DNA from: Lingula anatina | Taxonomy: Eukaryota > Animalia > Brachiopoda | Assembly: GCA_051362555.1 (NCBI GenBank) | Contig: CM120646.1 | Coordinates: forward strand, 1,364,001-1,428,000 | DNA: 64,000 nucleotides | Reading direction: 5' to 3' | In this document: in pieces, positions 15,894 through 51,765 of the stretch | Numbering within the stretch: position 1 is the stretch's first letter | Layout of the letters: each line of letters begins with the position of its first letter | Translations under genes and position numbers: made by a program | The notes under the pieces: generated by a model | What the model was told of the DNA's origin: nothing | What the model saw: the letters and a program-made list of their open reading frames with translations, nothing else | Databases searched by the model: none

Positions 15894-18790
15894 CTAGAGA
15901 AAAAATAAATGTTAATTGTATTACTTATGTCATCGCTTATGTTTGAACAGAAAGAGAAGAAAGTGAGTGAATCACATTTAGCTGAACATCGTGCTCCTTT
16001 ATCAGTTGTGCTTTTGCTTTTCCGTCACCTGAGCGGAGTCTTCATTTACGGAAGGAACACACACTTGACGTTTTAAATGTGGACTTTCTTATTAAATGTT
16101 CAACCGGCTTTTTCAAGTCAACTTTTTTCCAAGCATGTCTATGATGTTGCGTCAGAAAAATTCCCGTATAAAAATAGAAATCTTTCGAATCGGTAGCAAT
16201 GGAGAAAGTTAACACAAGCTGAAGTATAAAGGGCATGCTTACCGGTGACAAGTGGCCATTTCCACTCCAACATACAGCTATTGCGGACTAAAATTCTCTC
16301 TTCAACTTCACTTCAAAGGTTTCATTTAGTTTTTACCATGGATGAGGAAGATGGCAAAAGGTAAGCATGCTTTAAGATATTCTTTAATATAATATTTTGA
16401 GAAATTTAGACAATCTGGGGTGTTAGTTGAATTTGTTTGACATAATGTCTAGGTTAATTATTTGAACAACCCTTGGTCTGTATGAACCAAGTTGTTGTCG
16501 AGAATGAAGGTTTCCCTATCAACAGCAAAATGTAAGAAAATCTGCTTTAATATTGAATTTTTTCCACAAAGTATCTAGGTTGGTAGTTTGAGTTATCTAA
16601 ACCCCATGTCTGTGCGACATCAGTTATTCTCCCTATCAACATTTTTTGTTTGCTCAATATGGGGGTCCGTCAATCATTTTAATTATGAAATACATGTAAC
16701 GGAATGGTATTATTGCGTCGAGTGCAAACCTGGTGTTATCTCTTTTTAAATGATTAAAATCTCTCTTTTTTCTCCCCCCCCCTCTCTCTCTGTTATTTGT
16801 TTCATCTTTGGCAATGTATACAATGTGTTTACTCATGAAATCGAACCCACTCCCTCGCGATGAAAATCGAAGATGTTCTTTATCAAGTTACACGCCAAGG
16901 TTCACTTCTTTTTATACCCGAGATTACTTAACCTGTCTCTCTTTATTCTTTTTTTACGCGTTTTTGTCTGCGGCTTGTAAATAAAAAAGCGTACATTTTA
17001 ACACTTGTAATATTCATCACTGGGAGTAGTAAAAAAGAAGACGCGAGAGGTAGTTAAAAAGTGGCAGAGCTATTAAAACATATGAATTCTGAATTCACAA
17101 AAATGGAGGTAATTTAGAATATATAATTGCTATCATTTTCTTGGCAGATAAGGCTCCAAAGTCCACATTTAGTATTAGATTATTCAAACATACCCCCCCC
17201 CCCCTTGCAGAAACCCCTTTGGCGAGAAACATGGAAAATCCAAAGTAGTTGTTTAACAAAAAAATTAAAATAATAAATAAATAAATAAATAAATAAGTAA
17301 ATAAATAAATAAATAAATAAATAATAAAATAATAATAATTAATAAAAATTAGATTAAAAAAATCAGCTGAAGAAAAAATAAATGTTGATTGCATTACCTA
17401 TGTCATCACTTATGTTTGAACAGAAAGAAAAGATTGAAAGTGAGTGAATCCTTTATGAGTTGTGCTTTTGCCTTTCCGGCACATGAGCGGTTTCTTCTTT
17501 TACGGAAGGAACACACACTTGACGTTTTAAATGTGGACTTTCTTATCAGATGTGCAACCGTTTTTTTTTTCAAGTCAATTTTTTTCTTAGAATTGTGCTC
17601 AATTTTGGCTGCTGGTTAATGCGCTTTTATAAGAAAATATAAGAGTTTGAGGAAAAATGTTGTTGTTAAACTGATGCCAATGCTCTTTACTTTTGGTGCT
17701 TGATGTAACCCATGCCAACAGGTACATTTATATGCAGGCATGTAGAATCAAGGTATAAACGCAAATACTCCTATCCCCATGGAAGGGAAGCAACAATGTG
17801 GTTGGACTGGATCGCTCACACCACTGGGCTGAAAATCCGTTAATAGCTCTGTCACTTTTTTTACTACGTCTCACGTCCTTTTATTACTACTACTGGAAGA
17901 ACCTGCCGTCAGTGGTGAATTAACGAAAAGTATAATTTCAGTTAAGTTAGATCGATGCATAATAGTAGATATACTGAACAATAATTGTTTGGTAATATTA
18001 CCATCCCTTTGCGATAAATGGATCAGCACCAAATTCTTCGTTCATTCCTTGGTGAAATTTTGGCAATATCTGAGAACTTACCAAGTCCCGTTCATAACTT
18101 TTTGCAAAACGGTTTTAAATAATAAAGATCATGCGAAGATCATGCCTTTGTTTCAACAGTAGCGTTTATTGATCTACAAAACTGATTTGATAACAAAGAT
18201 ATATTTTGTTTAAAAAGTTTTGAATAACTGGGGTGGACAGAAAATTGTATCGATTGTTGAAAAAAAATAAATACCATAAAGCAAACGCTTGTGTTAAAAA
18301 CACTGGTACGTATATAGATTGGCTCTAATGTCGCACTGGTGTGAGGCAAGGCTTTATTTTCCATTTTTGCAAATGCTTAAGTATATTAAAATGATCTAGG
18401 ATTTGGAATAACGTATGTGGACAACCAGGTTCTCCTCTATGCAGATGACATTGTACCGTCAGCACATAATATACAGGTGATGCTAAACTGTTCTGTTGGC
18501 CGGTGGAAATGCTGGAGAGCTTCTAGATATGAAACTAAACGGAATCTTCATCATTGATAAGAACACCCCAAGGAAAGTAGATTGATATAAATATCTTGGT
18601 GTTACCTCCCATTACTCAGTGCAGTTTGCACATAATGCTGAAATTTGGCGAAAGGAGTCAGCAAAAGGGTTAGGTGGTATTATGAGTAAGATACATAGAA
18701 TGAAAGACGTTAGCTTTACTGCTTTTGAGCAGCTGTTCAAATAATGTGTCATGCCTGTCACAGATTACTTTTTCTCCTCATCAGGTTATA
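13150..18790 (-). repeat. Minus-orientation copies of the mosaic repeat family
   Basis: Blocks are reverse complements of 54070-58970, 63361-63630 and 9716-10370. For example, 17661-17882 matches 54070-54281 almost exactly. Confidence 0.85.
13836..14894 (-). mobile_element. 5'-truncated RTEX-like LINE (ORF2 C-terminus + 3'UTR)
   Basis: ORF 14295-14879 has LAKLRLSDHKLHIETGRH...RICHLC...IEDEYHFIFQCPMY (CCHC finger). AATAAA plus (TTGAA)n tail at 13836-13868; TSD ttttaat at 13829-13835 and 14895-14901. The empty site is visible in the paralogous repeat at ~56900-56925. Confidence 0.85.
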
Positions 18791-24232: not shown

Positions 24233-26599
24233 ATGTTTACCTTCAATTTTAGATATCCTCCGTGTGAACGACGACCGGGACGAAACGTTGAAAATAATGA
24301 AGATATGGAAAAATTCTCAAAATACTTAGCAGAAATGCTACCTCAGGAGATGTTTTCCATGAAAACGTTTCACCAGGCAATTAAAAACCTATTTGGGATT
24401 GATTTAGAACAGGATGAAAAGAAAATGTGTAAAATTCTCTATCAGGCAATTATCAGATCCAGTGGTGAAGATAAAACATCAGAAAATGGACTACTTGCAC
24501 TTATAGGGAAATATTATGGTGAATCTGTATTTACAAACGTCGGGTGTTATAATCATTATCCTCATGAATATATCGAACAGATTGGCCACAATATAGTTCA
24601 AAAGTTATTAGGGCATGTCTTTCCAGAGATGAAAGATGCGAGCAAAAGCTTACGGATCAAGTGTCTGGGTAGCTCATTTGGCGGCCTTGGGGTCCCATAT
24701 TTGTATGACCGGGAGCATGAAGCTCACCTTGAAATATCAGATGCAGATGTCATGCTAGTGTTAACGTCGCCAATTTTTCCCGCAGTCACGTCTCGTAGAG
24801 AGCAAGTGACAACAACAGAGGCAACGCTGTTCGTGGATGGTCATGGCTGTCATCCCGGTTATGTCAAACTTAAGTTCCAGGGCGAACAGCATTGGCTTCG
24901 TGTGCCAGGCATTTTGGAACGTGATCAAACTGGGGATGTATATCTGAGCAACAGAATCATGCAACATTTCGTCCAAAACCCGATGCTCGGGTTAGAAAAA
25001 GTGAAATTACTTTGTAAAAAGCTAAATGTCAGTTTTAATGGTCCTGCGGTATCATACAAATTGCCAATTTTTTCTGGTGTCAAACGAAACATTGTTCTGA
25101 CAGGCGATATTGTAGGGTCATTTCAGTGGAATGAGTTTCCTCAAGAAGCAGATGAATGGCTTGGTCGCGAGAGACCGAATAATTGGCCCAATGAGGAGCA
25201 AATCAAAGCTGTGAAAGCACTTGGATGTCATCTTGTTCCAGTTGCCAATCCTGGTGATCGAGATTGCCCAACCGAATGGAGGATTGCTTTTGTTTTAGCT
25301 GAGCGTCATCTTGCCTTGTCCTTAAATCCAGTTCAGTGCCATGTTTACCGCATCATAAAACTGGTACACAAGCAACGATTAGGAGGACTCGGCGTCCTTT
25401 CTACGTACCACTTAAAAACAACGCTATTCTGGTTATGTGAGCGCATTCCACAGGACAGCTGGACAGATGAAAAGAGGGGACAGCGTTTTTACGATTTTCT
25501 CGACCTCTTGATTGATTTTCTCTCCAGCAAGTGCATCCCAAACTACTTCATACGGGAAAACAACATGATAGATTACATGGATGAACAATTTGTCAATGAA
25601 AATGTTAAATTTTTGTGCGAGATCCGCAAAAATCCAAAAGCAATCCTCGACGAAATCCAAGCAACATATGACCTCCACTTTGATCTAGTGTTTTACTTGC
25701 TGTCAAAAACTCCTTTCAGAGATGTTTTGAAGGAGCTTGAAACACAGCAGGTGCGCGCAAGGTCACCAGAGGGTGAAAGTCCAGGAGGCTTGCTTAGAAC
25801 CATGAGAGAGATACTGGTCGACTCGTCAGAAAATGACTCAGACAGTGCCATGGGGGCAATAGGGGGAGCAGTAGACGCCTTTTGTTGGAAAGACTCAAAC
25901 AGTCCCTTTAAACTAATAAAAGAAATTGGAAAGGGGTTATTGAAAATCGCCTTGAAAGATAAAGTCGAAGAAAAATCAAAACGGACAACTCACTCAGTTT
26001 GCAATGACCAGCGTGGGACGGCAGCGAGAAGTAAGGTGGACAGTCCCCAAACAACAAACAATGCAGAAAACACAATACAAAGAAAGCATGTAATAGTGAC
26101 TGACTCAATAGGACAGTACCTTGATGGCAACAGGATGGACAGATCCTACGTGAAAGTACTCAGAGATAAAACTATTGCAGACGCACATGACTATATAATC
26201 AAATCAAACCTGGGAAATCCAGAATCTTTGACTTTTATTGTAGGAACAAACAGCATTGATCACCAAAGTGTTGCAGACACCGTCTCAGAGCTACACCAGC
26301 TGCGAGAGACAGCAGAAACGAAATATCCTGACTGTGATATATATTTCACGGGGATCCTGAATCGGCAACAAAACCAGAGTTTTAACGAGAGAGCAAAGCG
26401 GTACAATGACACTGTTGAGGCTGAACTCAGAGGTCATCTTAAAGCACATTTTATCGCAGTAAATGAGGTGATAAGCTCCCCAGATCACTACAGGGAAGAT
26501 GGATTTCACCTCAGTAGGAGGGGCACAAGCCTACTAGCACAATGTATTATGGCTTCACGCATCACTGCTCCACCGCCATCTTCTACCGACCGTCCATAA
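24233..26599 (+). CDS. Mab-21/cGAS-like nucleotidyltransferase (cGLR) fused to C-terminal SGNH/GDSL hydrolase, copy A (~788 aa; may be a terminal exon)
   Basis: Uninterrupted ORF. NTase motifs CLGSS, SDADVMLV and third Asp in GDIV; Mab-21 signatures GCHLVPV, EWRIAFVLAER, LSTYHLKTTLFWLCE, CIPNYFI.ENNMI. SGNH blocks VIVTDSIG, VGTNSI, DGFHLS. Start uncertain: ATG 24233, ATG 24305, or acceptor ttttag| at 24252. Confidence 0.9.
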   Translation: MFTFNFRYPPCERRPGRNVENNEDMEKFSKYLAEMLPQEMFSMKTFHQAIKNLFGIDLEQDEKKMCKILYQAIIRSSGEDKTSENGLLALIGKYYGESVFTNVGCYNHYPHEYIEQIGHNIVQKLLGHVFPEMKDASKSLRIKCLGSSFGGLGVPYLYDREHEAHLEISDADVMLVLTSPIFPAVTSRREQVTTTEATLFVDGHGCHPGYVKLKFQGEQHWLRVPGILERDQTGDVYLSNRIMQHFVQNPMLGLEKVKLLCKKLNVSFNGPAVSYKLPIFSGVKRNIVLTGDIVGSFQWNEFPQEADEWLGRERPNNWPNEEQIKAVKALGCHLVPVANPGDRDCPTEWRIAFVLAERHLALSLNPVQCHVYRIIKLVHKQRLGGLGVLSTYHLKTTLFWLCERIPQDSWTDEKRGQRFYDFLDLLIDFLSSKCIPNYFIRENNMIDYMDEQFVNENVKFLCEIRKNPKAILDEIQATYDLHFDLVFYLLSKTPFRDVLKELETQQVRARSPEGESPGGLLRTMREILVDSSENDSDSAMGAIGGAVDAFCWKDSNSPFKLIKEIGKGLLKIALKDKVEEKSKRTTHSVCNDQRGTAARSKVDSPQTTNNAENTIQRKHVIVTDSIGQYLDGNRMDRSYVKVLRDKTIADAHDYIIKSNLGNPESLTFIVGTNSIDHQSVADTVSELHQLRETAETKYPDCDIYFTGILNRQQNQSFNERAKRYNDTVEAELRGHLKAHFIAVNEVISSPDHYREDGFHLSRRGTSLLAQCIMASRITAPPPSSTDRP

Positions 26600-29579
26600 A
26601 TTTATACCAATGCTGAATATCAAAGGCTAATATTCAAAACATTTGCGTCAATTACAGACTGAAGATTTAGCGACAAATCGGGAACAATAGAAACAAAATG
26701 GGGATTTTTTGTACCATCTTTTTGAAGAATTGAACATTGTCTAAAATCGTGCTTCTGTCCAATTTATCTAAATATGGAGCTCGCAGCCTCATTGCGAGGA
26801 ACACTACACGCCATACTCTTCATGTTTTAATACCAAATACTTCAACGCAAATTCAAAAGAGATTTTTAAATATTTTTTTTTTAATTTTTAATTTTAAATA
26901 TGTTGTCTGCTATCTTTCCATTATTGGCAATACTGTATTGCATTGAAAAAGAAAAAAAAGCGATAGACTTTTTTTTTCTTTTTTTCTCTTGGTTTTTGAC
27001 CAAATTATTTATGAAAATTAAATGAATGATCACGAGAAATGTGCTTCGTGTATTGTTAACATTATTCGTCTTTCTAAAATGCTAAGCATTAGATATAAAA
27101 ATATGCATTTTTTAACCTGTGCCTCATCAGTCTGTTTACTACCCGTTTGCCCTTCAAAGCAAACAAATAAACAAAAAAAAAAATGAGGTACTCAGATAAT
27201 TGAATTTCAATCCGATAAAAAACGTATCTATTTAGTGTTCAGTAAAACAATTATATTTATAGCAGTTGCATTCAATTGTGTATAGACAAAGCAAATAGTG
27301 CGTCAAATAAAATGAATGTAAAGCAAGTACATGTATACGGCTAACCCTTTATCAATATCCTCTAGGACTTAATGCATTTTATTGAGAAATATCACGTCAA
27401 AACTATCCGCATTAAAATAGAAACTTGGTCTGTATGAACAAAGATAAAAAAAAGGTGTTTCCAGGTCCAACAGGATAATATTTGAAAAGTTAGACAAATC
27501 ACTTTCATTACAGTTGACAATTACGTGAAATATGCGCATCCAAGAACAAACCAGCAGATGACGAGGAAGCGCACATCATGCTGACGGCTATGAAGCCTCA
27601 ATTGGCTATACACCGCTAGTAGGTTAAGAATGCCATATCAGTAGAGGAGAGGATCGTTGCAATGTATAGTTTATGACCGTCCCAAAATAAACTTTAACTT
27701 CAAAAAACGTATAGTAATATCCCATCAAGTAGATGAAGCATGGGTCTTATCAACTGGGAACAAAAATCTGGTTTTGATACCTTAATTTAAAGTAAGGTCT
27801 ATACGAACATCTTTAATCTTTAGAACAACAACACATATTATTCAAATATCAATTGTTCATCCTAACGCTTTTCAGATAATTTAAAAACAACCCCTTCTTT
27901 ATTATTTTGCATTTGATTGTATTGAAATAAAGCAAATAGTGCGTTAAATAAAATCACCGTTTAGAATTATCGGGCGTATAGTGCTACAGGTATATACGGC
28001 TTTCATACATGTACAACCCAACACGGCATGCCGTATTATAAGCGCTGAAGGTTATCAAATGAACGAGCATCTTTCTCTTTCTGAACAGGAAAAAAACTGT
28101 TTAGAACCCCAAGTGTTGTGTGTATAGCGGGGAGACAGCAGGTGGTACTGACTTCTTAAAAGAACACAATGGGGCATATACTACTCAAAGGGGCTCTTAT
28201 CCGACTACAGAAGATTCTAGATTCGGTTCATGATTTCCGACTTGGGTTATGCCCGGAGAGAAAAGAAACACAACACCACTGCTTCCTTAAAAAAGCCAAA
28301 ACTGCTTTTATGCAAGACATTGGAGTGACAATTAGTAAACCAGCTATATAATGCATTGGCCATAAATATTTATTAAACATGCCGTTACATACATTGTAGT
28401 CCTACTGTACATGTACATATGAATTATGAATTCACAAGTCTGGTTAATTAGAATATATAATTGTTATAATTTTCTTGGTGGAAAGCCTCTAAACCCACCT
28501 TCTTGCTTCAGATTTTAATTTATTTAGAAATCTGTCGAAATCTTAGCAAAACTGAAAATAGCTCATTTTTTAATTTTGGCCCAGGATGTATTACATCATC
28601 GAGGCATAGCTCTTGGTACTTTGCGGATACAATTCTAGTTTTTGTGGTGGGTTTGTCAGGTCGTAATACTGGGAAATGAGGCAGGAACCATATTTGTTTA
28701 TTTTGCTGTTTTAAGTTTGGATCTCAATTACAAGGTGAATCACGTTTAGTTTCTTTGTTTGTGTGTGGATTTACTGTACGAAAATGTACCTTAATGGAGG
28801 CAATGCAGTCGACTATCTGCCTTTGAATTTATTCTTCCTGGTGTTTTCAGTACAATAAATCCGTAAAACTGATATAAATATTATCTGTGTTCTAGCCAGC
28901 CAGTGAAATAAAATAACAATTTAATCTTGTCAGTTTTTTATACACCATATGAACATCCACCTCTTTGGTGCAGTCTGTCTTTCTGTCTGTCTTATAGCAA
29001 CACTATGCAAAAGGTTATAGGAGCGTTTTGGTGAATTTTTCAGAAACTGCCAAGATTGGGCTAAAGAACAAGCGATTTTATTTTGGTTATGCTCATTCAA
29101 TTTTTAATTTATTAACCAAACTATTAACCTGTCAATCAACCAGTTAATTAACTAATTAATGAATTAATTTTTCAATCAACCAGTTAGTTAATTAATTAAT
29201 TAAGTAATTATTTAATTGAGTTTTCTGGGCTGAGGTAAGAGCTCTCTTTGTGTTTTTCATACACTATATTTATCTGAGCACGTAGAGAATTTAGGATATA
29301 TTTGGGGGTTTGTTGTTGTTGAGGGGGTGTTTGGCGTGAGACATATCTATAAGCATAAGAATTTATTGTTGATGATGGACATATCAAACAGGTATTATAT
29401 ATTGTATCTACGGTTTTACGAGTTTCCAATTTTCACTGACGGAAGGCTGTTTCCGTGTTTTAACACTTACAATTCTTTAAAGAATAGCCGTTTTAATTAT
29501 GATCTCAGGGCCAATGACGGAAGAGAGGAAGAAAAGTATTTATCATCATGTTGAAAGATCGATCCGTGTCCGTTATTGA

Positions 29580-29613
<34 letters not shown>

Positions 29614-30370
29614 CATTTATTTTGAGTCTAAAATCCATTAAAACATGTTCAGAAGACTTTACATATACATGAAACTATTACTTAAGAAATCAATTCTTAG
29701 GAATAGATAGATAAAAAATACAGAGCTTAACTACAAAAAAATTAAGTATAATTTAGATAAAACATACGGATACTCATATAAAAGCACTAAAGTTTAACAC
29801 TACATAACTAAAATATGTTTGTTAGGAAAAAATGATCAATTAAAGGTAAAAAAACAGCCTTATTTACACACAGAAAAAATTATAAGTAGCCTTATTTCTT
29901 ACAGTGCACAAATGCAATTATTATAAAATTTGTAGAATCAATTTAAAAGTCGATTAGTCAAAAAAAAAAAAAAAGAAAAAAAAAAAAAAAAGAAAAAGGC
30001 CTGAATAGGTATGTCTTCAATTCTTTTTTAAAATGATCGGATTTGCAGTGGCAATAAATTCCATTCTTTTGGACCTGCTGATTTAAAAGTAATGTCACCA
30101 TCAAATTTTACCGGCTTACTGAACAATTTGTCTACAGACCGCAGGCTTTTTGCTGGAACATAGTGAGTGACTAATTCACTTAAGTAGATCGTAGCAACTT
30201 TGTAAAATGCATCATGAACAAAGACTAGAAATCCAAATAAAATCCTGGCTTTCATAGGTAGCCAATGTTACTATTTCAAAACTGGGGTGATATGGTAACT
30301 CATGGATGTACGGGTTAATAATCTAGCTGAGATGTTCTGAATACGCTGCAGTCTTTAATCTGGATCAAGT
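29580..30370 (-). mobile_element. Degenerate L2/CR1-group LINE 3' fragment
   Basis: LQRIQNISAR, HITPVLK, WLPMKARILF and GPKEWNLLPLQIRS vestiges; (TTA)n tail at 29580-29610. Confidence 0.75.
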
Positions 30371-30916
30371 TCCTTTAGAAGCATATAGTGTAATTACGAT
30401 AGGAAAATAAGCACAAGTGAAGTGAATCGTTTCTATTGTCTATATACAAATTACCAAGGCTCATAGTGGTCTACATGTAGTTTGAACGGACACTATATAC
30501 TGCTAGCATATTGGAAATGATATAATTCTTTTACGGTACGTTAAGTATCAATACATGCTAAGTGACACACCAAGTGACACTGGGTTTATATCTTTAAATA
30601 CATCGCATGAATGTGATATTTAAACCAGAAAAACTAGACATTTCTGCCATCTGTCTTGAAAAGAAGCGATACATAAGTCAAATCATTTCACTCGGCAAGA
30701 CCAAAGTAACGGAAGTTGAAGATGTGATAAGGCGCAACATGTACCCGCTACTGCATAAATCCACAATAACTACACTACAGTGTAGCAAAGCACAATACAA
30801 TACATGTACAATACAATACAATATAATACAAAACAAAACAATACAATACAATAATGTTGACAAAGCAGTCAAAAAACCATGACCTATTTTAATTTGCTAA
30901 GAATCTCCTGTTAAAT

Positions 30917-33148
30917 CTATGGAGCAGTAGTGCGTGCAGTCATTATACATTGTGCAAGTAGGCTTGTGCCCCTCCTACTGAGGTGAAAACCATCTTCCCT
31001 GTAGTAATCTGGGGAGTTTATTACCTCATTTACTGCGATGAAATGTGCTTTCTGATGGCCTGTGAGTTCAGCCTCAACAGTGTCATTGTACCGCTTTGCT
31101 CTCTCGTTAAAACTTTGATTCTGTTGACGATCCAGGATCCCCGTGAAATATATTTCACAGTCTGGATATTTCGTTTCTGTTGTCTGTCGCAGCTGGCGCA
31201 ACTCTTTGGCGGCGTCCTTAACACTTTGGTGATCAATGCTAATTGTCCCCACTATAAAAGTCAAAGATTCTGGATTTCCCAGGTTTGATTTGATTATATA
31301 GTCATGTGCGTCTGTAATAGTTTTTTCTATCAGTACTTTCACGTAGGATCTGCCCATCCTGTTGCCATCAAGGTACTTTCCTATTGAGTCAGTCACTATA
31401 ACATGCTTTCTTTGTATTGTGTTTTCTGCATTGTTTGTTGTTTGGGGACTGTCCACCTTACTTCTCGCTGCCGTCCCACGCTGGTCATTGCAAACTGAGT
31501 GAGTTGTCCGTTTTGATTTTTCTTCAACTTTATCTTTCAAGGTGATTTTTAACAACCCCTTTCCAAATTCCTTTGTTAGTTTAAAGCAACTGTCGACTGT
31601 TCCTACTATTGCCCCCAAGACACTGTCCGAGTCATTTTCTGACGAGTCGATCAGTATCTCTTTCACGGCTCTAAGCAAACCTCCTGCGCCTTTATCCTCT
31701 GGTGATCCTGCGCGCAAGTCAAACACCCAACCAAAGCAAAACGTTGCTTGGATTTCGTGGAGGATTGTTTTTGGATTGTGACGGATTTCATGTAAAATGT
31801 AAACGTTTTCACTTACTAATTGTTGATCCATGTAATCTATCATGTTGTTTTTCGGTATGAAATAATTGGGGATGCACTTCTTGGATAGAAATCTAAGCAA
31901 GAGATCGAGAAAGTCGTAAAAACGTTGTCCCATTTTTTCATCTGTCCACCTTTCCTGTGGAATGCGCTCACATAGCCAAAATAACGTTGTCTTAAGGTGG
32001 TAAGTAGAAAGGACGCCGAGGTCTCCCAGTCGGTGTTTGTGTATCAGTTTTATAATACGGTAAACATGGCGCTGAGCTTGATTTAACGACAAGGCAAGAT
32101 AGCGCTCAGCTAAAGCAAAAGAGATCCTCCATTCAGTTCGGCATTCTCTGTCACCAGGATTGGCAACTGGAACAAGATGGCAGCCAAATTCTCTCACGGC
32201 TTTGATTTGCTCCATATTAGGCCAACCACTCAATCTCTCACGACTAAGCCAATCAGCTGCTTCATGGGGAAATTTCTTCCAAGGAAACGAAAAAACAAAA
32301 TCCATTCTTATTAAAGCGTGGCCTTTGCGACCACAAGGAATGGAGACTTTTATTGATTCGGCAGGACCTTTATAACTTAAATTTAACATTTTCCGCAATA
32401 TATCCTGGATTTCAAACCCTGGCTTCGGGGTTGGGACGTAACTTTGCCTGATTTTGTTGCTCAGATATACATCCCCAGTTTGATCACGTTCCAAAATGCC
32501 TGACACACTAAGCCGATGCTGTTTTCCCTGGAACTTAAGTTTGACATAACCGGGATGACAGCCATGACCATCCACGAGCAACACTGCCCCTGTTGTTGTC
32601 ACTTGCTCTCTACCTGACATGACTGTGGGAAAAAATGGCGGCCTCAACTCTATCATCACATCCGTATCTTGCATTTCATGGTAAGCTTTATCCCCCCGCT
32701 TATACATAGGTTCGATCCCAAGGCCGTCACAAGAGCTACCCAGACAAAAGATCCCTAAGTTCTCTGCAAAAGAATTCCCAAATATCTTTTTTAATCCATA
32801 GCCCAACGTTTGTTCCATATGTGCAAAATTACTATACCAATTGTCTGTAAATAGCAAATTAACAAAATATTTTCCCATAAATGCAAGTAGTCCATTTTCT
32901 GATGTTTTATCTCCACCAATGGACCTGATAAATGCATCCTTGAGAATTTTATACATCTCTTCTGTTTTCTTATCATTCAGACCTAAATCAATCCCAAAAC
33001 CATTTTCAATTAATTTCAGCCCAATCATATTTTCCTGAGGTAGCATCTCTGCTAAGTATTTTGAGAATTTTTCCATATCTTCAGTATTTTCAACGTTTCG
33101 TCTCGGTCGTCGTTCACACGGAGGATATCTAAAATTGAAGGTAAACAT
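30917..33148 (-). CDS. Mab-21/cGAS-like nucleotidyltransferase (cGLR)-SGNH fusion, copy B (743 aa)
   Basis: Paralog of copy A. CLGSSCDG, QDTDVMI, MDFV, GCHLVPV, EWRISFALAER, LSTYHLKTTLFWLCE; SGNH VIVTDSIG, VGTISI, DGFHLS. Same candidate acceptor (33129) and internal ATG (33076). Confidence 0.9.
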   Translation of the reverse strand: MFTFNFRYPPCERRPRRNVENTEDMEKFSKYLAEMLPQENMIGLKLIENGFGIDLGLNDKKTEEMYKILKDAFIRSIGGDKTSENGLLAFMGKYFVNLLFTDNWYSNFAHMEQTLGYGLKKIFGNSFAENLGIFCLGSSCDGLGIEPMYKRGDKAYHEMQDTDVMIELRPPFFPTVMSGREQVTTTGAVLLVDGHGCHPGYVKLKFQGKQHRLSVSGILERDQTGDVYLSNKIRQSYVPTPKPGFEIQDILRKMLNLSYKGPAESIKVSIPCGRKGHALIRMDFVFSFPWKKFPHEAADWLSRERLSGWPNMEQIKAVREFGCHLVPVANPGDRECRTEWRISFALAERYLALSLNQAQRHVYRIIKLIHKHRLGDLGVLSTYHLKTTLFWLCERIPQERWTDEKMGQRFYDFLDLLLRFLSKKCIPNYFIPKNNMIDYMDQQLVSENVYILHEIRHNPKTILHEIQATFCFGWVFDLRAGSPEDKGAGGLLRAVKEILIDSSENDSDSVLGAIVGTVDSCFKLTKEFGKGLLKITLKDKVEEKSKRTTHSVCNDQRGTAARSKVDSPQTTNNAENTIQRKHVIVTDSIGKYLDGNRMGRSYVKVLIEKTITDAHDYIIKSNLGNPESLTFIVGTISIDHQSVKDAAKELRQLRQTTETKYPDCEIYFTGILDRQQNQSFNERAKRYNDTVEAELTGHQKAHFIAVNEVINSPDYYREDGFHLSRRGTSLLAQCIMTARTTAP

Positions 33149-37162: not shown

Positions 37163-37301
37163 AGTAGTAAGAGGGCACTTTGGCGTAACAAAGGAAATGA
37201 CGTTAAATGACGTAAAACCCATTGTTTTAATGACGTAACAGGACAAAGAAAAATTATAGCGTACAATGGGACATGACGTAACAAGTAAACAAATATGTTT
37301 A
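37163..37301 (+). repeat. Left terminal inverted repeat (139 bp)
   Basis: Exact reverse complement of 52093-52231 by eye; begins AGTAGT; contains several TGACGT(A/T)A motifs. Confidence 0.97.
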
Positions 37302-37573
37302 TGTTTGTATTGCCATGGTAACGGAATTTTGTTGTGACAAAATGATGATGTCGCTGGACACGTCTGGACATGTGGGACGTTTGTTTATGTTTTGCTATGA
37401 CGTCACAGGGCAAGTCTGATCATGTTAATTTCAATTCTTTAATGCATATTTATTAATAGATACAAAATAAAGTAAAGCAAAACAACATAGAATTGTATAC
37501 ATAATTTTTATTGAAATAAACACACACACACACACAATATGTACAATAATACTACAAATTATCTAAAAATTTC

Positions 37574-38371
37574 TTAATAACCATATGGTAATGTGTTAAT
37601 TCCGTCTGGCATTATTGCTCTCTTTGTATAGACCATTCTGTAGGTCTTTTCTTCTAATTTTGAAGTGAGTTCTTTTGTAGCAACGTTACGCCTAATATTG
37701 TGATTGGTCACAGTGACTTTCTCTGGACCTTCTTTGTGTATCATTTTCTTTAATGTTTCAAAATTTACTATTTGTGATGTGGTATAATTAAGACTGATAC
37801 CACGCACTTTGCAAATAGTTTTGCCATTGAAAGTCTGGTAGGCATAATTTTTTGGACCCCCAGACACGTACGTTGTGATGTAATCACCGTCTTCAAGCTC
37901 GTCTGTGTAATCGCCTAAATGTGTGCCCATAATAGAATTTAGATAATTTTTGGTTTCGTCACTGCCGTCGTCAATGAAAATGATACTATCAGTATCAAAA
38001 TACAAAATATTTTCACCAAAAAATTCTAAAGATTCGTATAATTTGAGCCTAGCGTGTGCGGTGGTGTAAGCCGCAATCACAACGTTCGTGTTATCGGAGG
38101 ATATTTCGGCGGGATTTGTTCGATGATAACGTATTTCGGCGACGTCATCGTTTAAGAACATAATGTTGCTCACTTCGAGTTTCTTATCAAGTAGAATTTC
38201 GAAATACTCGTCGACATCGCCCACGTATTCTGTTTTGTCCATGTTTGTCTTCTGACCAAATTTACCTGAAATATAGAAGAAGAAAAAAATAAGTAAATTG
38301 TAATAATCATGACGCATCATAAAACAAAATCACAATACGCTAGTGTGAGCCTCTTGTGTATGTGTGTGTGC

Positions 38372-38408
<37 letters not shown>

Positions 38409-41400
38409 TATGACAGAATGACTTACCCCAGAAGCTGTTCAGCATGAGTTTGGCCAGTGCTCGCAGACCAGGATTTTTCTCAATTTTCTCAGGGTCCATT
38501 TGAATACCCTCGTGCATGGCATAGTCGTCAATGTATTGTTGTTTCTGCTCGTCTGTCTTACACCAAGAAGGGTAACCTGATGCTTGTTGTTTTACTTTCA
38601 GGAACGTGTTGATATATTCTGCAAAAAGACCACCTGTAACGATAGAAAATGAATAATGAGATACAAAATATAAACATTTTGTCAGCTCATGGGGAACCAG
38701 CAAACAAAAATTTTACATCATTATAATTATTGAACAGCGCAAGGAGAGGCATTGAAAAAAATTTACTGATGTCATAATTAAAGAACAGGACAAGGTGCCC
38801 AGATTAAAAATGACAGATAGTCGCAAGAAGATTCTTACCTGTTCTCGTCCCTGCGTCATAGCGGCTAACGGTGTCATAATGCCAGACTTCGTGGAAGGTG
38901 ATGATACGATACCCCTTAGCGACTGCTTTTTTAAGTTCAGCAGTAACCCATGCACCCGTGAGAATTCTTTCCTCATCGGTGTGTTCGCATTGTGATTGTT
39001 GCATACTTTCAACGCAAGTTTTGCACAAGGGGAATGTTAATTTGCCATTACTTCTGTAGGGCAATACGGGGTGAAACAATCCGCGAGGGGGTAACACACT
39101 GACCTTGGCTATCCCTTCATATTGATCAAGACCTACAAAATTGTCTGTGATAACATGGGGGTGATGGACGGGGTACGAACACATTTTGTTGGTCCACGGA
39201 TACAAACTTGTTATATCTATGTACCGAATTTTCTGGGCACCCTCTGCCGTGCAAAACAAACGCGCCGCATTTGTTCTCCCGCCATAAAACGCTTCCCTGG
39301 GATTTAATGGGTCTACAATGTCCAGGGAATCTACGAAAGTTTTCATTTCTGAATTTTCTTTTAGATTTCTCTCAAACTCGCATTCCCATATCTCTTCGTA
39401 CTGTAACCCTCGAGATTCTATATAGTGTCTAGCATTCATTGTTTTTTCAAACAAATTACCCATGGTCATGTTACGCACACTGTTCATGTTCCAGGGATCG
39501 TAACAATCGCGACAACCGTGCCAGTAACAGCCGTGAAACTGAAAGACTTTATTTAGGGTGGGGCAAAAACCATCCACCCTATAATTGCCGAATTTTCTTT
39601 CACCGCCATTCCGTGCGTGTTCTAAATGAATGTCACGGCTATGAGCAATGTATGCTAACCATCTTATGGCTTTTGCAGAGGTAGTGTGTCTAGGATTGTA
39701 CCCACCCTTTGGCATAATGCCGATTGTTTTGTGAGGGAGAAACAGGGTGCGATACACAACATTACAAGCACTTGCAATGGTTATTGCTGATCGAAACACT
39801 TCTATTTGCTGACCCTTTTCGCCCGTGATCTCTAAAAACAGTTGTCTGAATTTCAAGCAAGATCTGCGTAGAATGTCGACGTCCATTCTGCAATACTTAA
39901 CAATTTCAGACTGAAAATCAAAGACATAATTCTGTTTTACGAGATCGTCGTACCACTTAAAGAAGTCGGACCGTGCATTATCGGTCATGGACTCCACCCC
40001 GTAATAGTTTGAAGGGGGTAAAGCACCGATGTAATTTTGATTGTCAGGCGTGTTAAACAAGTGTGGAAAGTAACCTTTGCTTAACCCTTTGTCCAATGCA
40101 AAAGCCGACGGTAATTTGCTCAAAGCCATGGGAAGGAAATTGTAACTGTCAATGATTTTAATGTCTCCAATTTCGATAGAAATGCATTTAGCACCTCTAA
40201 GTATAACTTTTGGCAGTAGACCCTGATTCTTTAAATATTGTAAAATGTAATACGAATCGTAACCGCTAGCATAATGGGCAAGAGCAATACAACCGCAGGA
40301 AATATTCTCAAGTTCGTCTTCGACAGGGTCTTCGTCATCGATATAATTTTCGCCTTGCAAAGCGTGTAGACGTTCTTTTTCTTTTCTTGTGACGATACGT
40401 TTTTGTTTGCGCCTGTTTACAATTTCTTGCCCTTGTCCTTCAAATAGCCAAAAACAAAATTCGTCTCGCGCGTTTGCCCCACTAAAAATCCTTTCATTTT
40501 TGCCACACACGATACATTCGCTTGTGGGCGTGACCTCTTTATCGATGCAATGCCTACACACCTTGTGTGCGACCACTAAATTTGCCTTATGATCGCCATT
40601 CTCTTTTTGCATTGCTTCGAAATCAAAGAAAACGTAGGGCATGTCTTTTTCGACTTTTCTCTTTTTCTTTTTAGAGGTGCTAGATTCACCTTGTGCAGGA
40701 CCACTTTTACTTTGCAAGGGTTGCATGTAGCACAAGTGTCCTTGTTTAACACGTGCTTTGCACGTAGTGCAGTTATACGTGAAGCAAATGTGATCTTTTT
40801 CTTTCGTTTTAACCACAAATTTGCTGCACTTCTTGCAAGTAAAAAAAGTGTTGCAGGTTGACTTCCCATTCTCCACATGTTTATGATATTCAAAACATGC
40901 GCGGGAGAGAAAAGCCCTGTTGCAGTCTTCACACCGCGTCCAATTTTCAAAAACACACTCGGTGCCCTTTCTGCAGTACCTGCATTTGTTTGCACAAAGA
41001 TGATCGGTTACCATATTGTACCCTACGTTACAAGAGGCGCAATAATACGAACGCGACATGAAACCTTTGACAGAAGTGATCACGTCGTAGTGTCCGTTAT
41101 GATGAAAAAGGTTAAGCTGTTGTAGTCGCGTGGGGCCTTTGTGTATAATAGAATTAAAATGATCGCCAGAAAAAACGATAATTTGAAAGTCACGCAAATG
41201 ATCTTGGAATTTTTTAATTTCCTCCAATCCGCATGGACCTTCAGGTACACCGGCTGCCGCGTGAAGAGCCATTGCTCTTTCTAATTGAATCGTGCAACGA
41301 GGGTCGGCGATCTCTTTGTAATTTGGCAAGTGATCAGCCCTCGCTATAGCAACGACTAATGCCCTAGCTAGGCAGAGTTCATCGCTATTACGAATAGTTA

Positions 41401-41992
41401 CGACAGATTTCTTATTTTTCAGGAAAGATTGCACCCCCATAGAACCTCTACGTCTGTGACCGAGGCCTGGCTGTGGCATAGCTACGTGACATATAGTTAA
41501 TATCACTTTGCTGTCTAACCTGAAATCTTCGTGACTTTGCAACACACGCATCAGTATAGACAAAAATAGGTCTGCGGATAATTCTGACACGCGAACAAAG
41601 GGTATGGACACAGGGTGTTCTAAAGTGTCACTCTGAAGGACTACTCTGATTAAATCGTAACCCTGAAATCCAGTTGTTATTTCTGAGAAAATACTGTCAA
41701 AAACAGCACGTACTAATGGCACTGCAAAAGTAACGGGCACCCTATCTAGGCGATTGAACCCTAAACGATAGTCACGGCAAGTGGTGCGGAATTTTTGAAC
41801 GTAACGTTCGCCTATGCTATTCAACACATAGTAATCTCGAGGGTTAAAGTGTTCCCTCTCTATTGCATCGACGCGTGACAAAAAATCAGCGTCGTACTCG
41901 TCCTCCCTTCCCCATAAATGGGCTAAAGAATTGTTTCCCTCGTCTTCCTGTCCATCACCCCCTTGTAAATAGGAATCGTTTCTTTCAGTCAT
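37574..41992 (-). CDS. Protein-primed family B DNA polymerase, 3 exons (41992-38839, 38633-38427, 38265-37574), ~1350 aa
   Basis: Exo FFDFE, AHYASGYD, YCRMDV; Pol A YIDITSLYP, Pol B KLMLNSFW|GKFGQ (restored only by splicing), Pol C YFDTDS. OTU-like DELCLARA...GHYD, Cys-rich fingers, Vsr-like RVDGF...FHGCYWHGC, NLS-like KKKKRKV. Both introns GT-AG, phase 1. Confidence 0.95.
38266..38426 (-). other. Spliceosomal intron 2 of pPolB (161 bp)
   Basis: TGG G|GTAAGT ... polypyrimidine TTTCAG|GT AAA TTT GGT CAG; contains a (CT)n(CA)n microsatellite. Confidence 0.93.
38634..38838 (-). other. Spliceosomal intron 1 of pPolB (205 bp)
   Basis: ACA G|GTAAGA ... TTTTCTATCGTTACAG|GT GGT CTT. Joins YDAGTRT to GGLFAEYINTFLKVKQQASG; in-frame stop at 38804 if unspliced. 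Confidence 0.92.
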
Positions 41993-42121
41993 CGTCAACG
42001 CAATGAAATATGAAACCGACCCTACTAACTTGTAAAAATTCTACTACTGCAATCTCAACTAAAGCAACGAGTAATCAATGAAAAGATTGCACAGACAAAT
42101 TGAGTTTTTCGTGCGCGCTCA

Positions 42122-42439
42122 CTAGAAATGTCCACAAAAACAATCTTCTCTAATGTCTGCTAAATTATCTAATACGAGATCCAATAAAAGCACCCCGTGA
42201 TCGGCTATTAGCTCTTTTTTTTCTTCTTTCGGAAGATAGGAAAATGTCCTTTCAATGTAGCGAACAACTTTATCTAAAAGGTAATGGTCTCGGAGTTGAC
42301 TAGCTATGTTGATAAGGTCTGATAAATTGTAATTTTCAATTATATGTGTCTGATTTACAATGGCTTTTGATGCTAACAAACTTAGAGATCTGGGGTTATT
42401 ACGACGTCTTAACCAAACTGTATAATAGTTATCTCCCAT
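42122..42439 (-). CDS. Maverick accessory protein, 105 aa, with N-terminal BC-box/SOCS-box-like motif
   Basis: ATG-initiated ORF immediately upstream of pPolB. PRSLSLLASKAIV fits the [STP]Lxxx[CSA]xxx[ILV] consensus. Confidence 0.6.
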   Translation of the reverse strand: MGDNYYTVWLRRRNNPRSLSLLASKAIVNQTHIIENYNLSDLINIASQLRDHYLLDKVVRYIERTFSYLPKEEKKELIADHGVLLLDLVLDNLADIREDCFCGHF

Positions 42440-42672
42440 AACTAGAACTACTGACGTACAAAAATATGCAACATAATACTGAAGTTAAAGGCAAGTCGCA
42501 TTAGGGGGGGTATCGTAAACGAAATATCTCTGCAACGTTCCCACTGGAAATTAAGAAATTAAAAATGAAAATAAGTTCTAACCCACTTAATGAATCTAAT
42601 AAAAAATTTATAAAACGAAAAGTGAAAATGATAGTAATAACATTACGAATGATTATTTACCTTATCGTAGAA

Positions 42673-42796
42673 TCTTGAGCAGCCACTGAATTCTTGATCA
42701 AAGTCGCAGCAGAGCCTTCATATGCTTTCTCTATCTTATTGCAGTCTTGAGCAGCCACTGAAGTCTTGATCAAAGTCGCAGCAGAGCCTTCATATG
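42673..42796. repeat. Direct repeat, 72-bp period x2
   Basis: tcttgagcagccactgaa(t/g)tcttgatcaaagtcgcagcagagccttcatatg at 42673 and 42745. Confidence 0.9.
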
Positions 42797-42909
42797 TTCT
42801 CTCTCTCTCTCGCTGATTTCAAATTTGTTAAAATGTCGAAGGAATGGTCAAATTTATAGAGAACGTATCCTTTATAAATTTGAAATGACCAATTGCAGTT
42901 CACTTTCCA

Positions 42910-43340
42910 TGATCGTCGGCCAATTAAAAAAGTTGTTTATTTCTATCGACCAATAAAATTTAAAAATCGTAGATGTAAATTTCAAAATTGTGTTTATTAG
43001 CTACGTATATGTGTTTATATGGTCGCTATGATCATCAGTTTAAAAACGTTATATTTTTGTCGACCAATGAAATTTAAAGACCGTTGACGCATATTTCAAA
43101 ATCGTGTTTATTAGTTACGTATATGTTTTATTTGGTTACTATGATTATCATTTAAAATTTATTTATTTCTAACGATCAACGAAATTACATAAATCGTAGG
43201 CGTGGATTTTAAAATTTGTTAATTAATTACGTATATGTGTTTATATCAACCTCGACGCATCAGTTTAAAAATTATTTATTTTCATCGATCACCGAAATTT
43301 TAAAATTCGTAGGCAAGGATTTTATAACTTGTTTATTGAG
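42910..43340. repeat. Degenerate ~113-bp tandem repeat (~3.7 units) in the divergent intergenic region
   Basis: Anchor cga(c/t)ca at ~42946, 43060, 43172 and 43285; shared tacgtatatgt; CCAAT in the first units. Confidence 0.8.
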
Positions 43341-44180
43341 CTTGGTCTTCAGTAGTCAAATTCCATTTAAATTCCCTCTATAGACATCGTGCAGCATAAT
43401 TGCAGGGTAATTCAAAATCCATCGTTAGTAATATAATCATTTTATTTGCTCGAGACACATTATAAGGTGGATACGCACCATGTGTTATGTAAGCAAGGGG
43501 TAAGGGTGAAATATTTGAACATGTGTTGATAATACACTAGGCTTTCAAACGCTCTAATGCAAATAGCCGTTAACGCCTTTGGACAAACTGTACTTTCAAA
43601 AGAGTAATAAACCGGGCGCATCAAAGGCAAAATCAGTCGCAGATGTCAATCCTATCCACGGTCCTAATGAGTTTCCCGTCACACTGACAGTGCAGTGCAA
43701 AGATAATCCTCCTAACTATCAACAAAAGTCATGGTTGTAAATTTTATAACAGTTTCCCTATTTTACAAGATACAATCCTCATTTTCACTCTAGCTTTCAT
43801 CGTAATCACATGCAAAATGTTTCCCCTGTTTGTACTGCTCACACTTTTCAGCACTGCGTTTGCTGACTGTATGACAGAAATTCCTGATTATATCGTCAGA
43901 TGTACAGGAGAGATCGAAAACGGCCAGACATATTATGGTAAGCAAAACTAACACTTTACGTGCTCTGTGGTAAAGCTTATTACACAACTCTATAGGTTTT
44001 AATGCACACGTTGGCAGCCATAGCGTTACAATCAAAACACTGCACTGTTTGCTGGGTCCATCATGTGCAATTAAGGGTTATATATTTAAGAAAGTTTACA
44101 TAGGTGTCGATGAATATCATCATGCATTAAGTTATAAAATAAACCCTTCAAGTAAGTACAGGTCAATTTAACAATTGGCA

Positions 44181-44843
44181 ATGTACGAGATACACCTAAA
44201 ACATCCTTTTACAGCTCTTATAGCCGGCCCAACTGGCTCCGGAAAGACGATGTGGGTTAAACGATTGTTAGCAAATACTGACACGTTAATATTTCCCTCG
44301 CCACAAAAGATAATGTACTGTTATGCAATTTGGCAGCCGATCTACGACGACATTCAGAGTGAACACCCTGACACAATAACTTTTTTTAAAGGTATTCCGA
44401 CAGACCTTAGTGACGAAGCCTTTTTTGATTCTCAATTGAATAATCTGATAATTCTCGATGATCTCTTTGCTGAATGCGGGGACGATCCCCTGATACGTGA
44501 CCTTTTCACAAAGGGGTCTCATCATCGTAACATAAGTGTAGTGCTGATTGTGCAAAATTTATTTCCCAAGGAAAAACATGCTCGAACTATATCGCTGAAC
44601 TGTCATTATTTGATCCTTTTTAAAAATCCTCGAGATTTGCTGCAAGTCAAAACGCTAGGAATGCAAATGTACCCCAATGACCTTAAGCCGTTTATAGATG
44701 TTTATAAAGACGCCACAGTCAATGCACATGGTTACTTACTGATAGACCTTCGTCAGAGCAGTTCGGACAACATTCGTCTGCGAACAAATATCTTTCCAGG
44801 AGAAACGCATTACGCATACACTCGCAGCTCTGATGTACCATGA
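44181..44843 (+). CDS. A32-like (FtsK-HerA) genome packaging ATPase
   Basis: Walker A GPTGSGKT, Walker B LIILDDL, KGSHHRNISV, FKNPRD, RLRTNIFP; first ATG at 44181. Confidence 0.95.
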   Translation: MYEIHLKHPFTALIAGPTGSGKTMWVKRLLANTDTLIFPSPQKIMYCYAIWQPIYDDIQSEHPDTITFFKGIPTDLSDEAFFDSQLNNLIILDDLFAECGDDPLIRDLFTKGSHHRNISVVLIVQNLFPKEKHARTISLNCHYLILFKNPRDLLQVKTLGMQMYPNDLKPFIDVYKDATVNAHGYLLIDLRQSSSDNIRLRTNIFPGETHYAYTRSSDVP

Positions 44844-45160
44844 AAGCCGGGTCTGAGAAATTGTATAACGCTCACGTAAAATTGCTTTTAATTGCCGACA
44901 AGAAACTTATAAAAGCTATAATACAGAATTCTCACTACGACCTTGTTCGCATATTGTCTAATTACGCATCTAATCTACTGTATAATACGGATATTAACCT
45001 GACTTCGAAAGAAAAATTGTCATTGCGCAGAGTTAAACGCGTCATCAAACAATTGGCTTCTAAAGGAGTTTCCGTACATCATAAGAAAACATTATTGTTA
45101 CAAAACATTCCTGCGGTGAAGGCTATTGTCACATCTATAACGCGAAATGTCGGTCTTTAA
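44840..45160 (+). CDS. Small basic Polinton protein of unknown function (106 aa)
   Basis: ATGA overlap with the ATPase stop; helical Lys/Leu-rich pattern like the ORF typically following the ATPase in these elements. Confidence 0.7.
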   Translation: MKAGSEKLYNAHVKLLLIADKKLIKAIIQNSHYDLVRILSNYASNLLYNTDINLTSKEKLSLRRVKRVIKQLASKGVSVHHKKTLLLQNIPAVKAIVTSITRNVGL

Positions 45161-45860: not shown

Positions 45861-45924
45861 AAAGTTTAGAACGCAAAATATATTGTCACAAAGCTTTATT
45901 TTTATTTCAGTCGAATAAATGTGT

Positions 45925-46452: not shown

Positions 46453-46454
46453 CT

Positions 46455-47777: not shown

Positions 47778-47779
47778 GT

Positions 47780-48142: not shown

Positions 48143-48144
48143 TG

Positions 48145-48876: not shown

Positions 48877-48914
48877 GGTTTCAAATGATATGCACAACTG
48901 TTTACAGTTTGCTT

Positions 48915-50045: not shown

Positions 50046-50083
50046 CCCTTGTCTCAATCGATAACTAAATGTTTTTTCGATTC

Positions 50084-51692: not shown

Positions 51693-51765
51693 TATGCTGG
51701 TGGAACGTACGTACACTTTATGTCAGGATTTATACTGATATAGTCAAATAGCTCTTTCTCTTCTG

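What the first reader, a model, noticed from the sequence alone, without database searches (positions are those of the whole stretch)
24233..33148. cGAS-like receptors fused in frame to an SGNH hydrolase: candidate one-polypeptide sensor/cyclase-effector (or integrated-decoy) system
Seen: both ORFs have a complete Mab-21/cGLR NTase with GS and D-x-D...D, then a linker, then an SGNH fold (about 26084-26560 and 30940-31410) keeping Ser (TDS) and DxxH (DGFH). Both are stop-free in a window where most other host-side coding relics are decayed, which suggests selection. Known: animal cGLRs usually signal through STING and carry death, TPR or ankyrin partners, while bacterial CBASS CD-NTases activate separate lipase effectors such as the patatin CapV. 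Inference: this could be a self-contained cyclase-lipase/esterase, or a receptor with a retroelement-derived bait. I do not recall this architecture being described, but could not search.
Basis: partly seen in the sequence, partly recalled or inferred. Interest (0 to 1): 0.85.

Follow-up and report, generated by a model that had tools for sequence, protein, structure and literature searches.

The report
Immune sensor with captured transposon esterase
Two neighbouring genes, likely from a Lingula brachiopod, each join a predicted cGAS-like immune sensor in frame to an esterase-fold domain that was likely captured from a jumping gene and is likely kept as an accessory part rather than as a built-in effector enzyme.

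Summary
The fusion is real. Two inverted paralogues carry a Mab-21/cGLR core and an SGNH domain in one stop-free exon. The closest named proteins are Lingula anatina: two fused and two unfused paralogues, so the fusion arose once within this family.

The tail is under purifying selection (dN/dS 0.30; 0 indels in 621 nt against 23 in the adjacent intron), while the NTase lobe has dN/dS near 1. A profile of the tail's family matches the ZfL2-1 retrotransposon ORF1 esterase best in the PDB (E 4e-25), so the tail is likely a domesticated ORF1 fragment. The Ser-Asp-His triad is kept, but the oxyanion Asn (141 of 149 relatives) is Ile in 3 of 4 copies.

Sparse RNA reads from related copies cover both domains; none is shown to span the junction. 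The architecture already sits in one row of Li et al. 2023 Table S2, and that protein was screened but was not among the 15 named actives.

Verdict: a new variant of a known kind, likely a STING-type cGLR with an accessory domain. A CBASS-like cyclase-lipase is unlikely (about 10%).

The parts
16338..16360 (+). Likely first coding exon of gene A (7 codons + AG, GT donor), behind a conserved promoter-like block with a TATA-like box
24253..26599 (+). Gene A main exon: cGLR core, helical extension, linker and SGNH tail in one frame (789 aa with exon 1)
24650..25669 (+). Gene A NTase lobe and helical C-lobe; GS at 24668, DAD at 24740, third Asp at 25106
25952..26080 (+). Fusion point and 43-codon linker; similarity to the unfused paralogues ends at about 25960; linker protein identical in A and B
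26081..26554 (+). Gene A SGNH domain: Ser (26105), Asn (26249), Asp (26498) and His (26507) kept; no block II Gly
30917..33128 (-). Gene B main exon, same architecture (744 aa with exon 1)
30938..31411 (-). Gene B SGNH domain: triad kept, block III Asn replaced by Ile
58410..58432 (-). Likely first coding exon of gene B, 25 kb upstream
   Evidence: (16136-17078 matches 58634-57645 inverted, 81%); assignment inferred
37163..52231 (.). Maverick/Polinton-type element lying inside the inferred first intron of gene B; not part of the fusion
   Evidence: terminal inverted repeats, 6-bp target duplication, pPolB, ATPase, integrase and protease hits

Best explanation
These are two duplicated cGAS-like receptor genes whose ancestor likely captured the esterase end of a non-LTR retrotransposon ORF1 in place of its acidic tail; the receptor part is predicted to make a cyclic dinucleotide that would signal through STING, and the captured domain is likely kept as a folded accessory module with weak or no catalysis rather than as a messenger-activated lipase. 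Shown: one reading frame, a single shared junction in four copies, unfused paralogues, purifying selection on the tail, triad kept, oxyanion Asn lost in 3 of 4 copies. Inferred: retroelement donor, cyclase activity, STING as output, and the tail's role. The most likely role is an acyl/lipid-binding or protein-contact module that tunes where or when the receptor is active.
For: Junction and linker are shared by A, B, XP_023933535 and XP_013388617; XP_013388616 and XP_013398736 lack the domain (hhalign probability 0.2% for XP_013398736). The four tails form one clade, support 99 (quick tree). dN/dS A vs B: SGNH 0.30 (bootstrap 0.15-0.59), C-lobe 0.23, NTase 1.00, N-term 1.26. Fisher p is 4e-4 against neutrality and 0.004 against the NTase lobe; 0 gaps in 621 nt of tail against 23 in 633 nt of intron. 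A profile of 41 family members hits 4C1B (ZfL2-1 ORF1 esterase) first, E 4e-25 against 4e-16 for the next. 74 of 149 relatives carry both 'transposon-specific' residues of PMC3905857 (His 76, Ser 107). Relatives carry DnaJ, NADAR, PHD-like and coiled-coil-like regions before the esterase. Asn is present in 141 of 149 relatives, none has Ile, yet 3 of 4 Lingula copies have Ile. All four copies have Ile/Thr at the two transposon-specific positions, whose double mutation kills ZfL2-1 activity. L. anatina has 13 cGLRs and 2 STINGs (PMC9980059 Table S5).
Against: No genomic context of any relative was seen, so a downstream ORF2 was not shown and the donor is not identified. The best relatives are only about 33-36% identical, and single-sequence and fold searches put PAF-AH ahead of 4C1B. 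Cyclase activity is unproven: the 78%-identical homologue was sample 21 of 140 in Li et al. and is not among the 15 named actives (Fig. S3 unreadable). Motif spacings (X22, X~115) exceed their pattern (X8-20, X50-90), though they kept the homologue in the curated list. Gene A keeps Ser, Asn, Asp and His and may be an active esterase; missing block II Gly is a subfamily trait (Gly in 4 of the top 12 relatives), not decay. The tails have pI 5.6-7.2 against 10.8 for ZfL2-1, whose membrane binding is charge-driven, so a simple membrane tether is doubtful. No read is shown across the junction (bin 25950-26041 empty).
Confidence: 0.55

Rival explanations
1. Integrated bait: the ORF1-derived tail contacts retroelement or viral particles, or the proteins that target them, and so brings the cGLR to foreign nucleic acid or triggers it.
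For: Likely retroelement origin; catalysis dispensable in 3 of 4 copies; gene A core pI 6.5 with more acidic than basic residues, and Li et al. suggest that acidic cGLRs respond to non-nucleic-acid ligands.
Against: The ORF1 coiled coil, which does the self-association in ZfL2-1 while the esterase is monomeric and does not bind oligo-A RNA, was apparently not captured: only 43 residues precede the domain. The tail is the conserved part and the NTase lobe the fast part, opposite to a bait in an arms race (expectation from recall).
Confidence: 0.17
2. Constrained passenger: the insertion supplied a new stop and 3' end; selection only keeps the appended domain folded and in frame, and it has no job.
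For: Single lineage only (1 SGNH row among 3,832 rows of Table S2; 0 of 152 SGNH relatives with a cGLR core). The triad surviving in four 87-90% identical copies is expected by chance with probability 0.56. Part of the linker is homogenised (dS 0.04).
Against: A dispensable 205-residue tail should truncate freely, yet 4 of 4 copies keep it whole; dN/dS 0.30 with dS 0.22 and no indels.
Confidence: 0.17
3. Self-contained sensor-cyclase-effector: the cyclic nucleotide made by the cGLR switches on the fused esterase/lipase in the same chain, as CBASS cyclases switch on separate phospholipases.
For: Both modules are in one frame; gene A keeps Ser, Asn, Asp and His; the ZfL2-1 esterase is active and binds phospholipids.
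Against: SGNH fold rather than the patatin fold of CapV (CapV fold recalled). No cyclic-nucleotide sensor domain was found. Asn is Ile in 3 of 4 copies. The ZfL2-1 enzyme is slow (0.92 against 345 U/mg for TAP). STING is present in the genus and unfused paralogues exist.
Confidence: 0.1

Closest known systems
Lingula anatina XP_013388617.1 / XP_023933535.1 (RefSeq; cGLR list and screen sample 21 in Li et al. 2023, PMC9980059)
   Same: Same architecture and junction; 78% and 82% identical to gene A, tails 87-89% identical; SGNH_hydrolase hit at 659-777 already in their Table S2.
   Different: Not identical to either window gene. Both have Ile at the oxyanion Asn, whereas gene A has Asn. The passages and sections I read do not discuss the fusion or its origin.
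Animal cGLRs (Sp-cGLR1 8GJY, MB21D2, cGAS)
   Same: Mab-21 NTase plus helical bundle with GS and three acidic residues.
   Different: Longer motif spacings, an extra N-terminal segment, and an enzyme-fold tail. 87% of cGLRs have no appended domain, and the appended domains named are TPR, ankyrin, death or further cGLR domains.
ZfL2-1 ORF1p esterase and the CR1/RTEX/Penelope ORF1 esterases (PMC3905857, PDB 4C1B)
   Same: Best PDB match of the tail's family profile; same block order and triad.
   Different: TDS for GDS, no block II Gly, Ile/Thr at the transposon-specific His/Ser, near-neutral rather than strongly basic, no coiled coil, and fused to a host gene.
CBASS CD-NTase plus CapV phospholipase (recalled)
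   Same: A nucleotide cyclase next to a lipid-acting hydrolase fold.
   Different: CapV is a separate patatin protein activated by the messenger; here the fold is SGNH, in cis, of likely transposon origin and often missing the oxyanion Asn.

Membership tests
cGLR (criteria of Li et al. 2023) | Active-site residues hGS...[DE]h[DE]h...h[DE]h | tested here: met
   GS, DAD/DTD and a third Asp in both genes. Spacings X22 and X~115 exceed the published X8-20 and X50-90, as in XP_013388617, which they accepted.
cGLR (criteria of Li et al. 2023) | [quoted passage not shown] | tested here: met
   Mab-21 and Mab-21_C above cut-off; 8GJY E 2e-18.
cGLR (criteria of Li et al. 2023) | Predicted structural homology to cGLR | tested here: inconclusive
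   Full-length model failed, pLDDT 35 from 5 sequences.
cGLR (criteria of Li et al. 2023) | Ligand-dependent cyclic dinucleotide synthesis | not testable with these tools
   Homologue screened but not among the 15 named actives; Fig. S3 not readable.
SGNH hydrolase | Flavodoxin-like SGNH fold | tested here: met
   Foldseek top hits SGNH, E 3.5e-6; VIA Z 9.8, rmsd 4.3, 152 aligned, tied with small GTPases; profile search.
SGNH hydrolase | Ser-Asp-His triad | tested here: met
   4 of 4 Lingula copies.
SGNH hydrolase | Block II Gly of the oxyanion hole | tested here: not met
   Asp or Glu in 4 of 4 copies, but Gly in only 70 of 149 relatives and 4 of the top 12, so a subfamily trait.
SGNH hydrolase | Block III Asn of the oxyanion hole | tested here: inconclusive
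   Met in gene A, not met (Ile) in gene B and both RefSeq copies; Asn in 141 of 149 relatives.
Non-LTR ORF1 esterase (Schneider et al. 2013) | Sequence family closest to the ZfL2-1 esterase | tested here: met
   4C1B first by 29 bits with a profile of 2 window domains plus 39 of the 149 relatives; not first with the window domains alone.
Non-LTR ORF1 esterase (Schneider et al. 2013) | Transposon-specific His191 and Ser228 | tested here: not met
   Ile and Thr in 4 of 4 Lingula copies; both residues present in 74 of 149 relatives.
Non-LTR ORF1 esterase (Schneider et al. 2013) | Relatives lie upstream of an endonuclease/reverse transcriptase ORF2 | not testable with these tools
   No loci found for relatives; no donor remnant elsewhere in the window.
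CBASS cyclase-phospholipase (CapV type) | Patatin-fold effector | tested here: not met
   Tail is SGNH; the CapV fold is recalled.
CBASS cyclase-phospholipase (CapV type) | Effector activated by the cyclic product | not testable with these tools
   Needs an enzyme assay.

The most novel reading that the evidence does not exclude
Gene A, the one copy with Ser, Asn, Asp and His all intact, is a one-chain sensor-cyclase-effector: an animal cGLR that domesticated a retrotransposon ORF1 esterase and switches it on with its own cyclic nucleotide, rebuilding a CBASS-like lipid-hydrolase output independently of STING, while its Ile-bearing sisters are non-catalytic partners or baits.
Probability: 0.1. 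Interest if true: 0.9.

Novelty: new variant of a known kind. Interest (0 to 1): 0.5.

Why it matters
It is likely a case of an innate-immune receptor family domesticating a retrotransposon ORF1 enzyme domain, caught with fused and unfused paralogues in one genus and with a natural catalytic pair (Asn versus Ile). That makes two questions cheap to test: what an appended domain does for a cGLR, and what ORF1 esterases do beyond hydrolysis. If the tail were a product-activated effector, it would be an animal cGLR with built-in enzymatic output. The breadth is small: it was found only in Lingula-like sequences, and the architecture is already a row in a published supplementary table.

Tried and rejected
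- No whole genome is held, so copy number and a genomic donor could not be sought.
- No RNA holder was listed in the index; only raw-read runs under the same species label were offered, and 4 of 9 were laid. Run X4 gave 0 reads, which is no test.
- Word-based searches with the tail found only XP_023933535 (1 of 417 candidates) or nothing (0 of 101).
- Metagenome scans gave no relative: 114 stretches, none confirmed; 11 loci, all chance matches. A viral scan could not be seeded.
- The Atlas gave animal GDSL clusters at 0.94-0.95 for the tail of the homologue and no usable hit for the whole protein.
- The full-length fold failed, so domain contacts are unknown. A homodimer prediction was not queued and gives no verdict.
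- NCBIfam gave nothing relevant. The earlier-findings index was empty for sequence, words and place.
- Rejected: start codons at 24233/33148 (intronic); missing block II Gly as a sign of decay (subfamily trait); triad retention as proof of catalysis (chance 0.56); capture from the neighbouring Maverick (no tail-like match outside the two tails); independent captures (same junction, one clade).
- No ISRE-like motif was found near the five first exons.
- Kapitonov and Jurka 2003 was not held; only its title was seen, in a reference list.

Full report
Observation. The two long frames are there and stop-free: A at 24134-26599 (+) and B at 30917-33226 (-), facing each other. Both score Mab-21 and Mab-21_C above Pfam's cut-offs and Lipase_GDSL below it. 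The best PDB matches are Sp-cGLR1 (8GJY, E 2e-18) and MB21D2 for the front and PAF-AH Ib for the tail. The NTase motif is GS-X22-DxD-X~115-D in both. An AlphaFold model of the tail alone (2 sequences, pLDDT 58) finds SGNH hydrolases first in Foldseek (E 3.5e-6; 4C1B at rank 27). In the wide search PAF-AH leads at Z 9.8, rmsd 4.3, 152 aligned, but small GTPases tie with it, so that search alone shows little. The full-length model failed (pLDDT 35).

Gene structure. A polypyrimidine tract and AG end at 24252 and 33129, and 5 RNA reads of run X7 carry a spliced-on piece encoding Met plus six residues at that acceptor. The window holds five homologous 23-nt coding exons ending AG|GTAAG behind a conserved promoter-like block. 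By strand and by an inverted match of 16136-17078 to 58634-57645, the exon at 16338 (+) likely belongs to A and the one at 58432 (-) to B, giving 789 and 744 residues. This assignment is inferred; the read-borne exon is similar but not identical to either. The receptor and the tail lie in the same exon, so the fusion needs no splicing. A Maverick-type element (37163-52231) sits in B's inferred first intron.

Organism and family. Of 7988 candidates scored, 6 passed, and the top three are Lingula anatina. XP_023933535 and XP_013388617 are fused like the window genes (82% and 78% identical to A). XP_013388616 and XP_013398736/7 are close paralogues (60% and 48%) that end in an acidic tail instead; XP_013398736 shows no SGNH similarity by hhalign. 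Similarity to the unfused forms stops at about 25960; the following 43-residue linker and the domain are shared by all four fused copies, which form one clade (support 99, quick tree of 145 relatives plus 4; rows under 120 residues and two probable false hits were dropped). So one capture happened inside this cGLR family and was then duplicated.

Selection. Nei-Gojobori dN/dS between A and B is 1.26 for the N-terminal segment, 1.00 for the NTase lobe, 0.23 for the C-lobe and 0.30 (bootstrap 0.15-0.59; dS 0.22) for the SGNH domain. The SGNH value differs from neutrality (p 4e-4) and from the NTase lobe (p 0.004). The tail has 0 gaps in 621 nt against 23 in 633 nt of duplicated intron. The linker is nearly identical (dS 0.04), which suggests local gene conversion. 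This is one pair of sequences.

Expression. No indexed RNA holder was listed. I laid 4 of 9 offered raw-read runs on gene A only, reading 6-30% of each: X1 3 reads, X4 0, X7 29, X9 2. All 34 reads are 90-95% alike, so they come from related alleles or paralogues and not from this copy. X7 touches 18 of 30 bins, in both the receptor and the tail. No joint skipping the tail was listed, but depth is too low for that to be a test, and the bin at the junction (25950-26041) is empty. The family is transcribed at a low level; read-through into the tail is likely but not shown.

Origin of the tail. A profile search of 1.84 billion representatives gave 174 hits at E up to 0.001; the best 150 were listed, one being XP_023933535, and I analysed the other 149. 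They are distant (about 33-36% at best) and mostly unnamed; the one named among 20 looked up with a species is from Saccoglossus. None of 152 (149 plus 3 cluster members) matches a cGLR profile (best E 0.09), and Pfam found no Mab-21 in 75 at E 1e-4 or 77 at E 1e-9. Pfam found DnaJ in 7 and NADAR in 7 of those 152. Of 73 with 150 or more residues upstream, 7 have a PHD-like pattern (my regular expression). A profile of the 2 window domains plus 39 relatives that I picked, mostly the shorter ones, matches the ZfL2-1 ORF1 esterase 4C1B first (E 4e-25; next 4e-16). The two residues that Schneider et al. call transposon-specific are both present in 74 of 149 relatives. A non-LTR ORF1 donor is thus likely. 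It is not proven: no relative's locus was seen, and the window domains alone rank PAF-AH above 4C1B.

Is the tail an enzyme? Against the ZfL2-1 blocks, the four copies keep Ser, Asp and His, but 128 of 155 columns are invariant, so three given columns survive by chance with probability 0.56. TDS and the missing block II Gly are shared with the nearest relatives (Gly in 4 of the top 12) and are not decay. The block III Asn is different: 141 of 149 relatives have it and none has Ile, yet gene B and both RefSeq copies have Ile; only gene A has Asn. All four have Ile and Thr at the transposon-specific His and Ser, whose double mutant is inactive in ZfL2-1. The fold is under selection while the oxyanion hole is apparently dispensable in most copies. 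The tails are near neutral (pI 5.6-7.2), unlike ZfL2-1 (10.8), whose liposome binding is charge-driven and whose esterase is monomeric in solution.

Mechanism. Most likely (0.55) these are ordinary cGLR-type receptors predicted to make a cyclic dinucleotide for STING (L. anatina has 13 cGLRs and 2 STINGs), with a domesticated ORF1 esterase fold as an accessory acyl-binding or contact module. Rivals are a bait for retroelement or viral particles (0.17), a constrained passenger (0.17) and a product-activated effector in cis (0.10). Every step after the anatomy is inferred. The fast NTase lobe and the different core charge (pI 6.5 in A, 8.8 in B) suggest the paralogues are diverging in activator or product.

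What is known. In Li et al. 2023 (PMC9980059, preprint version; I saw passages, sections 5 and 6, and search hits in supplementary files 1-5), XP_013388617.1 is in the cGLR list. Table S2 gives it an SGNH_hydrolase hit (659-777, E 3e-6), the only 'SGNH' or 'hydrolase' row in that file of 3,832 rows, with no lipase, patatin or esterase row. The near full-length protein was sample 21 of their 140-protein screen and is not among the 15 named actives. The Fig. S3 PDF could not be read, so inactive, insoluble and merely unselected cannot be told apart. Full-text searches found 0 papers for cGLR+SGNH, Mab-21+nucleotidyltransferase+GDSL (42), esterase+ORF1+domesticated+innate immunity+non-LTR retrotransposon (75), integrated decoy+transposable element+cGAS-like receptor (78) and DnaJ+esterase+RTEX (107). 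Lingula+cGAS and Lingula anatina+Mab-21 gave 17 and 2 listings, seen as listings only (33, 62). Subscription journals and supplements are not covered by these searches. Other papers: PMC3905857 (passages, sections 12 and 16), PMC5408684, PMC10792757, PMC10732462 and bioRxiv 2025.09.04.674280 (passages only). CapV, CBASS, decoy expectations and promoter motif names are recalled.

Verdict. It is a new variant of a known kind, lineage-restricted and already tabulated though apparently not discussed. The new points are the likely retrotransposon origin, the single capture beside unfused paralogues, selection on the tail and the Asn/Ile split. Interest 0.5.

Noticed in passing
window 37163-52231: Maverick/Polinton-type element with terminal inverted repeats (97-99%) and a 6-bp target duplication; pPolB, A32-like ATPase, integrase-chromodomain, adenain-like protease and a BIR (inhibitor of apoptosis) domain ORF at 50084-50593. 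It lies in the inferred first intron of gene B.
   Followed up: partly
window 4734, 8721, 10676 (- strand): Three more copies of the promoter plus first-exon unit point out of the left end of the window, probably alternative first exons of another family member; RefSeq isoforms XP_013398736/7 differ only in their first residues.
   Followed up: partly
window 16140-16340 and its four homologues: Conserved block upstream of all five first exons: a TATA-like box about 105 nt before the ATG and GCGTCA / AAAATTCC motifs that resemble CRE/AP-1 and Rel sites (labels recalled, untested).
   Followed up: partly
window 24254-25336 versus 33127-32050: N-terminal segment and NTase lobe have dN/dS 1.0-1.3 between the paralogues, suggesting diversifying selection at some sites.
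   Followed up: partly
proteins P0165, P0167, P0039, P0041, P0047, P0057, P0072: Long unnamed ORFs combining DnaJ, sometimes NADAR or a PHD-like finger, a coiled-coil-like region and the SGNH domain; probably a retroelement ORF1 type. One search (DnaJ, esterase, RTEX) found no paper.
   Followed up: partly
window 7344-7949, 14295-14921, 52553-52963: Short LINE reverse-transcriptase-like remnants (RVT_1 hit for the last).
   Followed up: no
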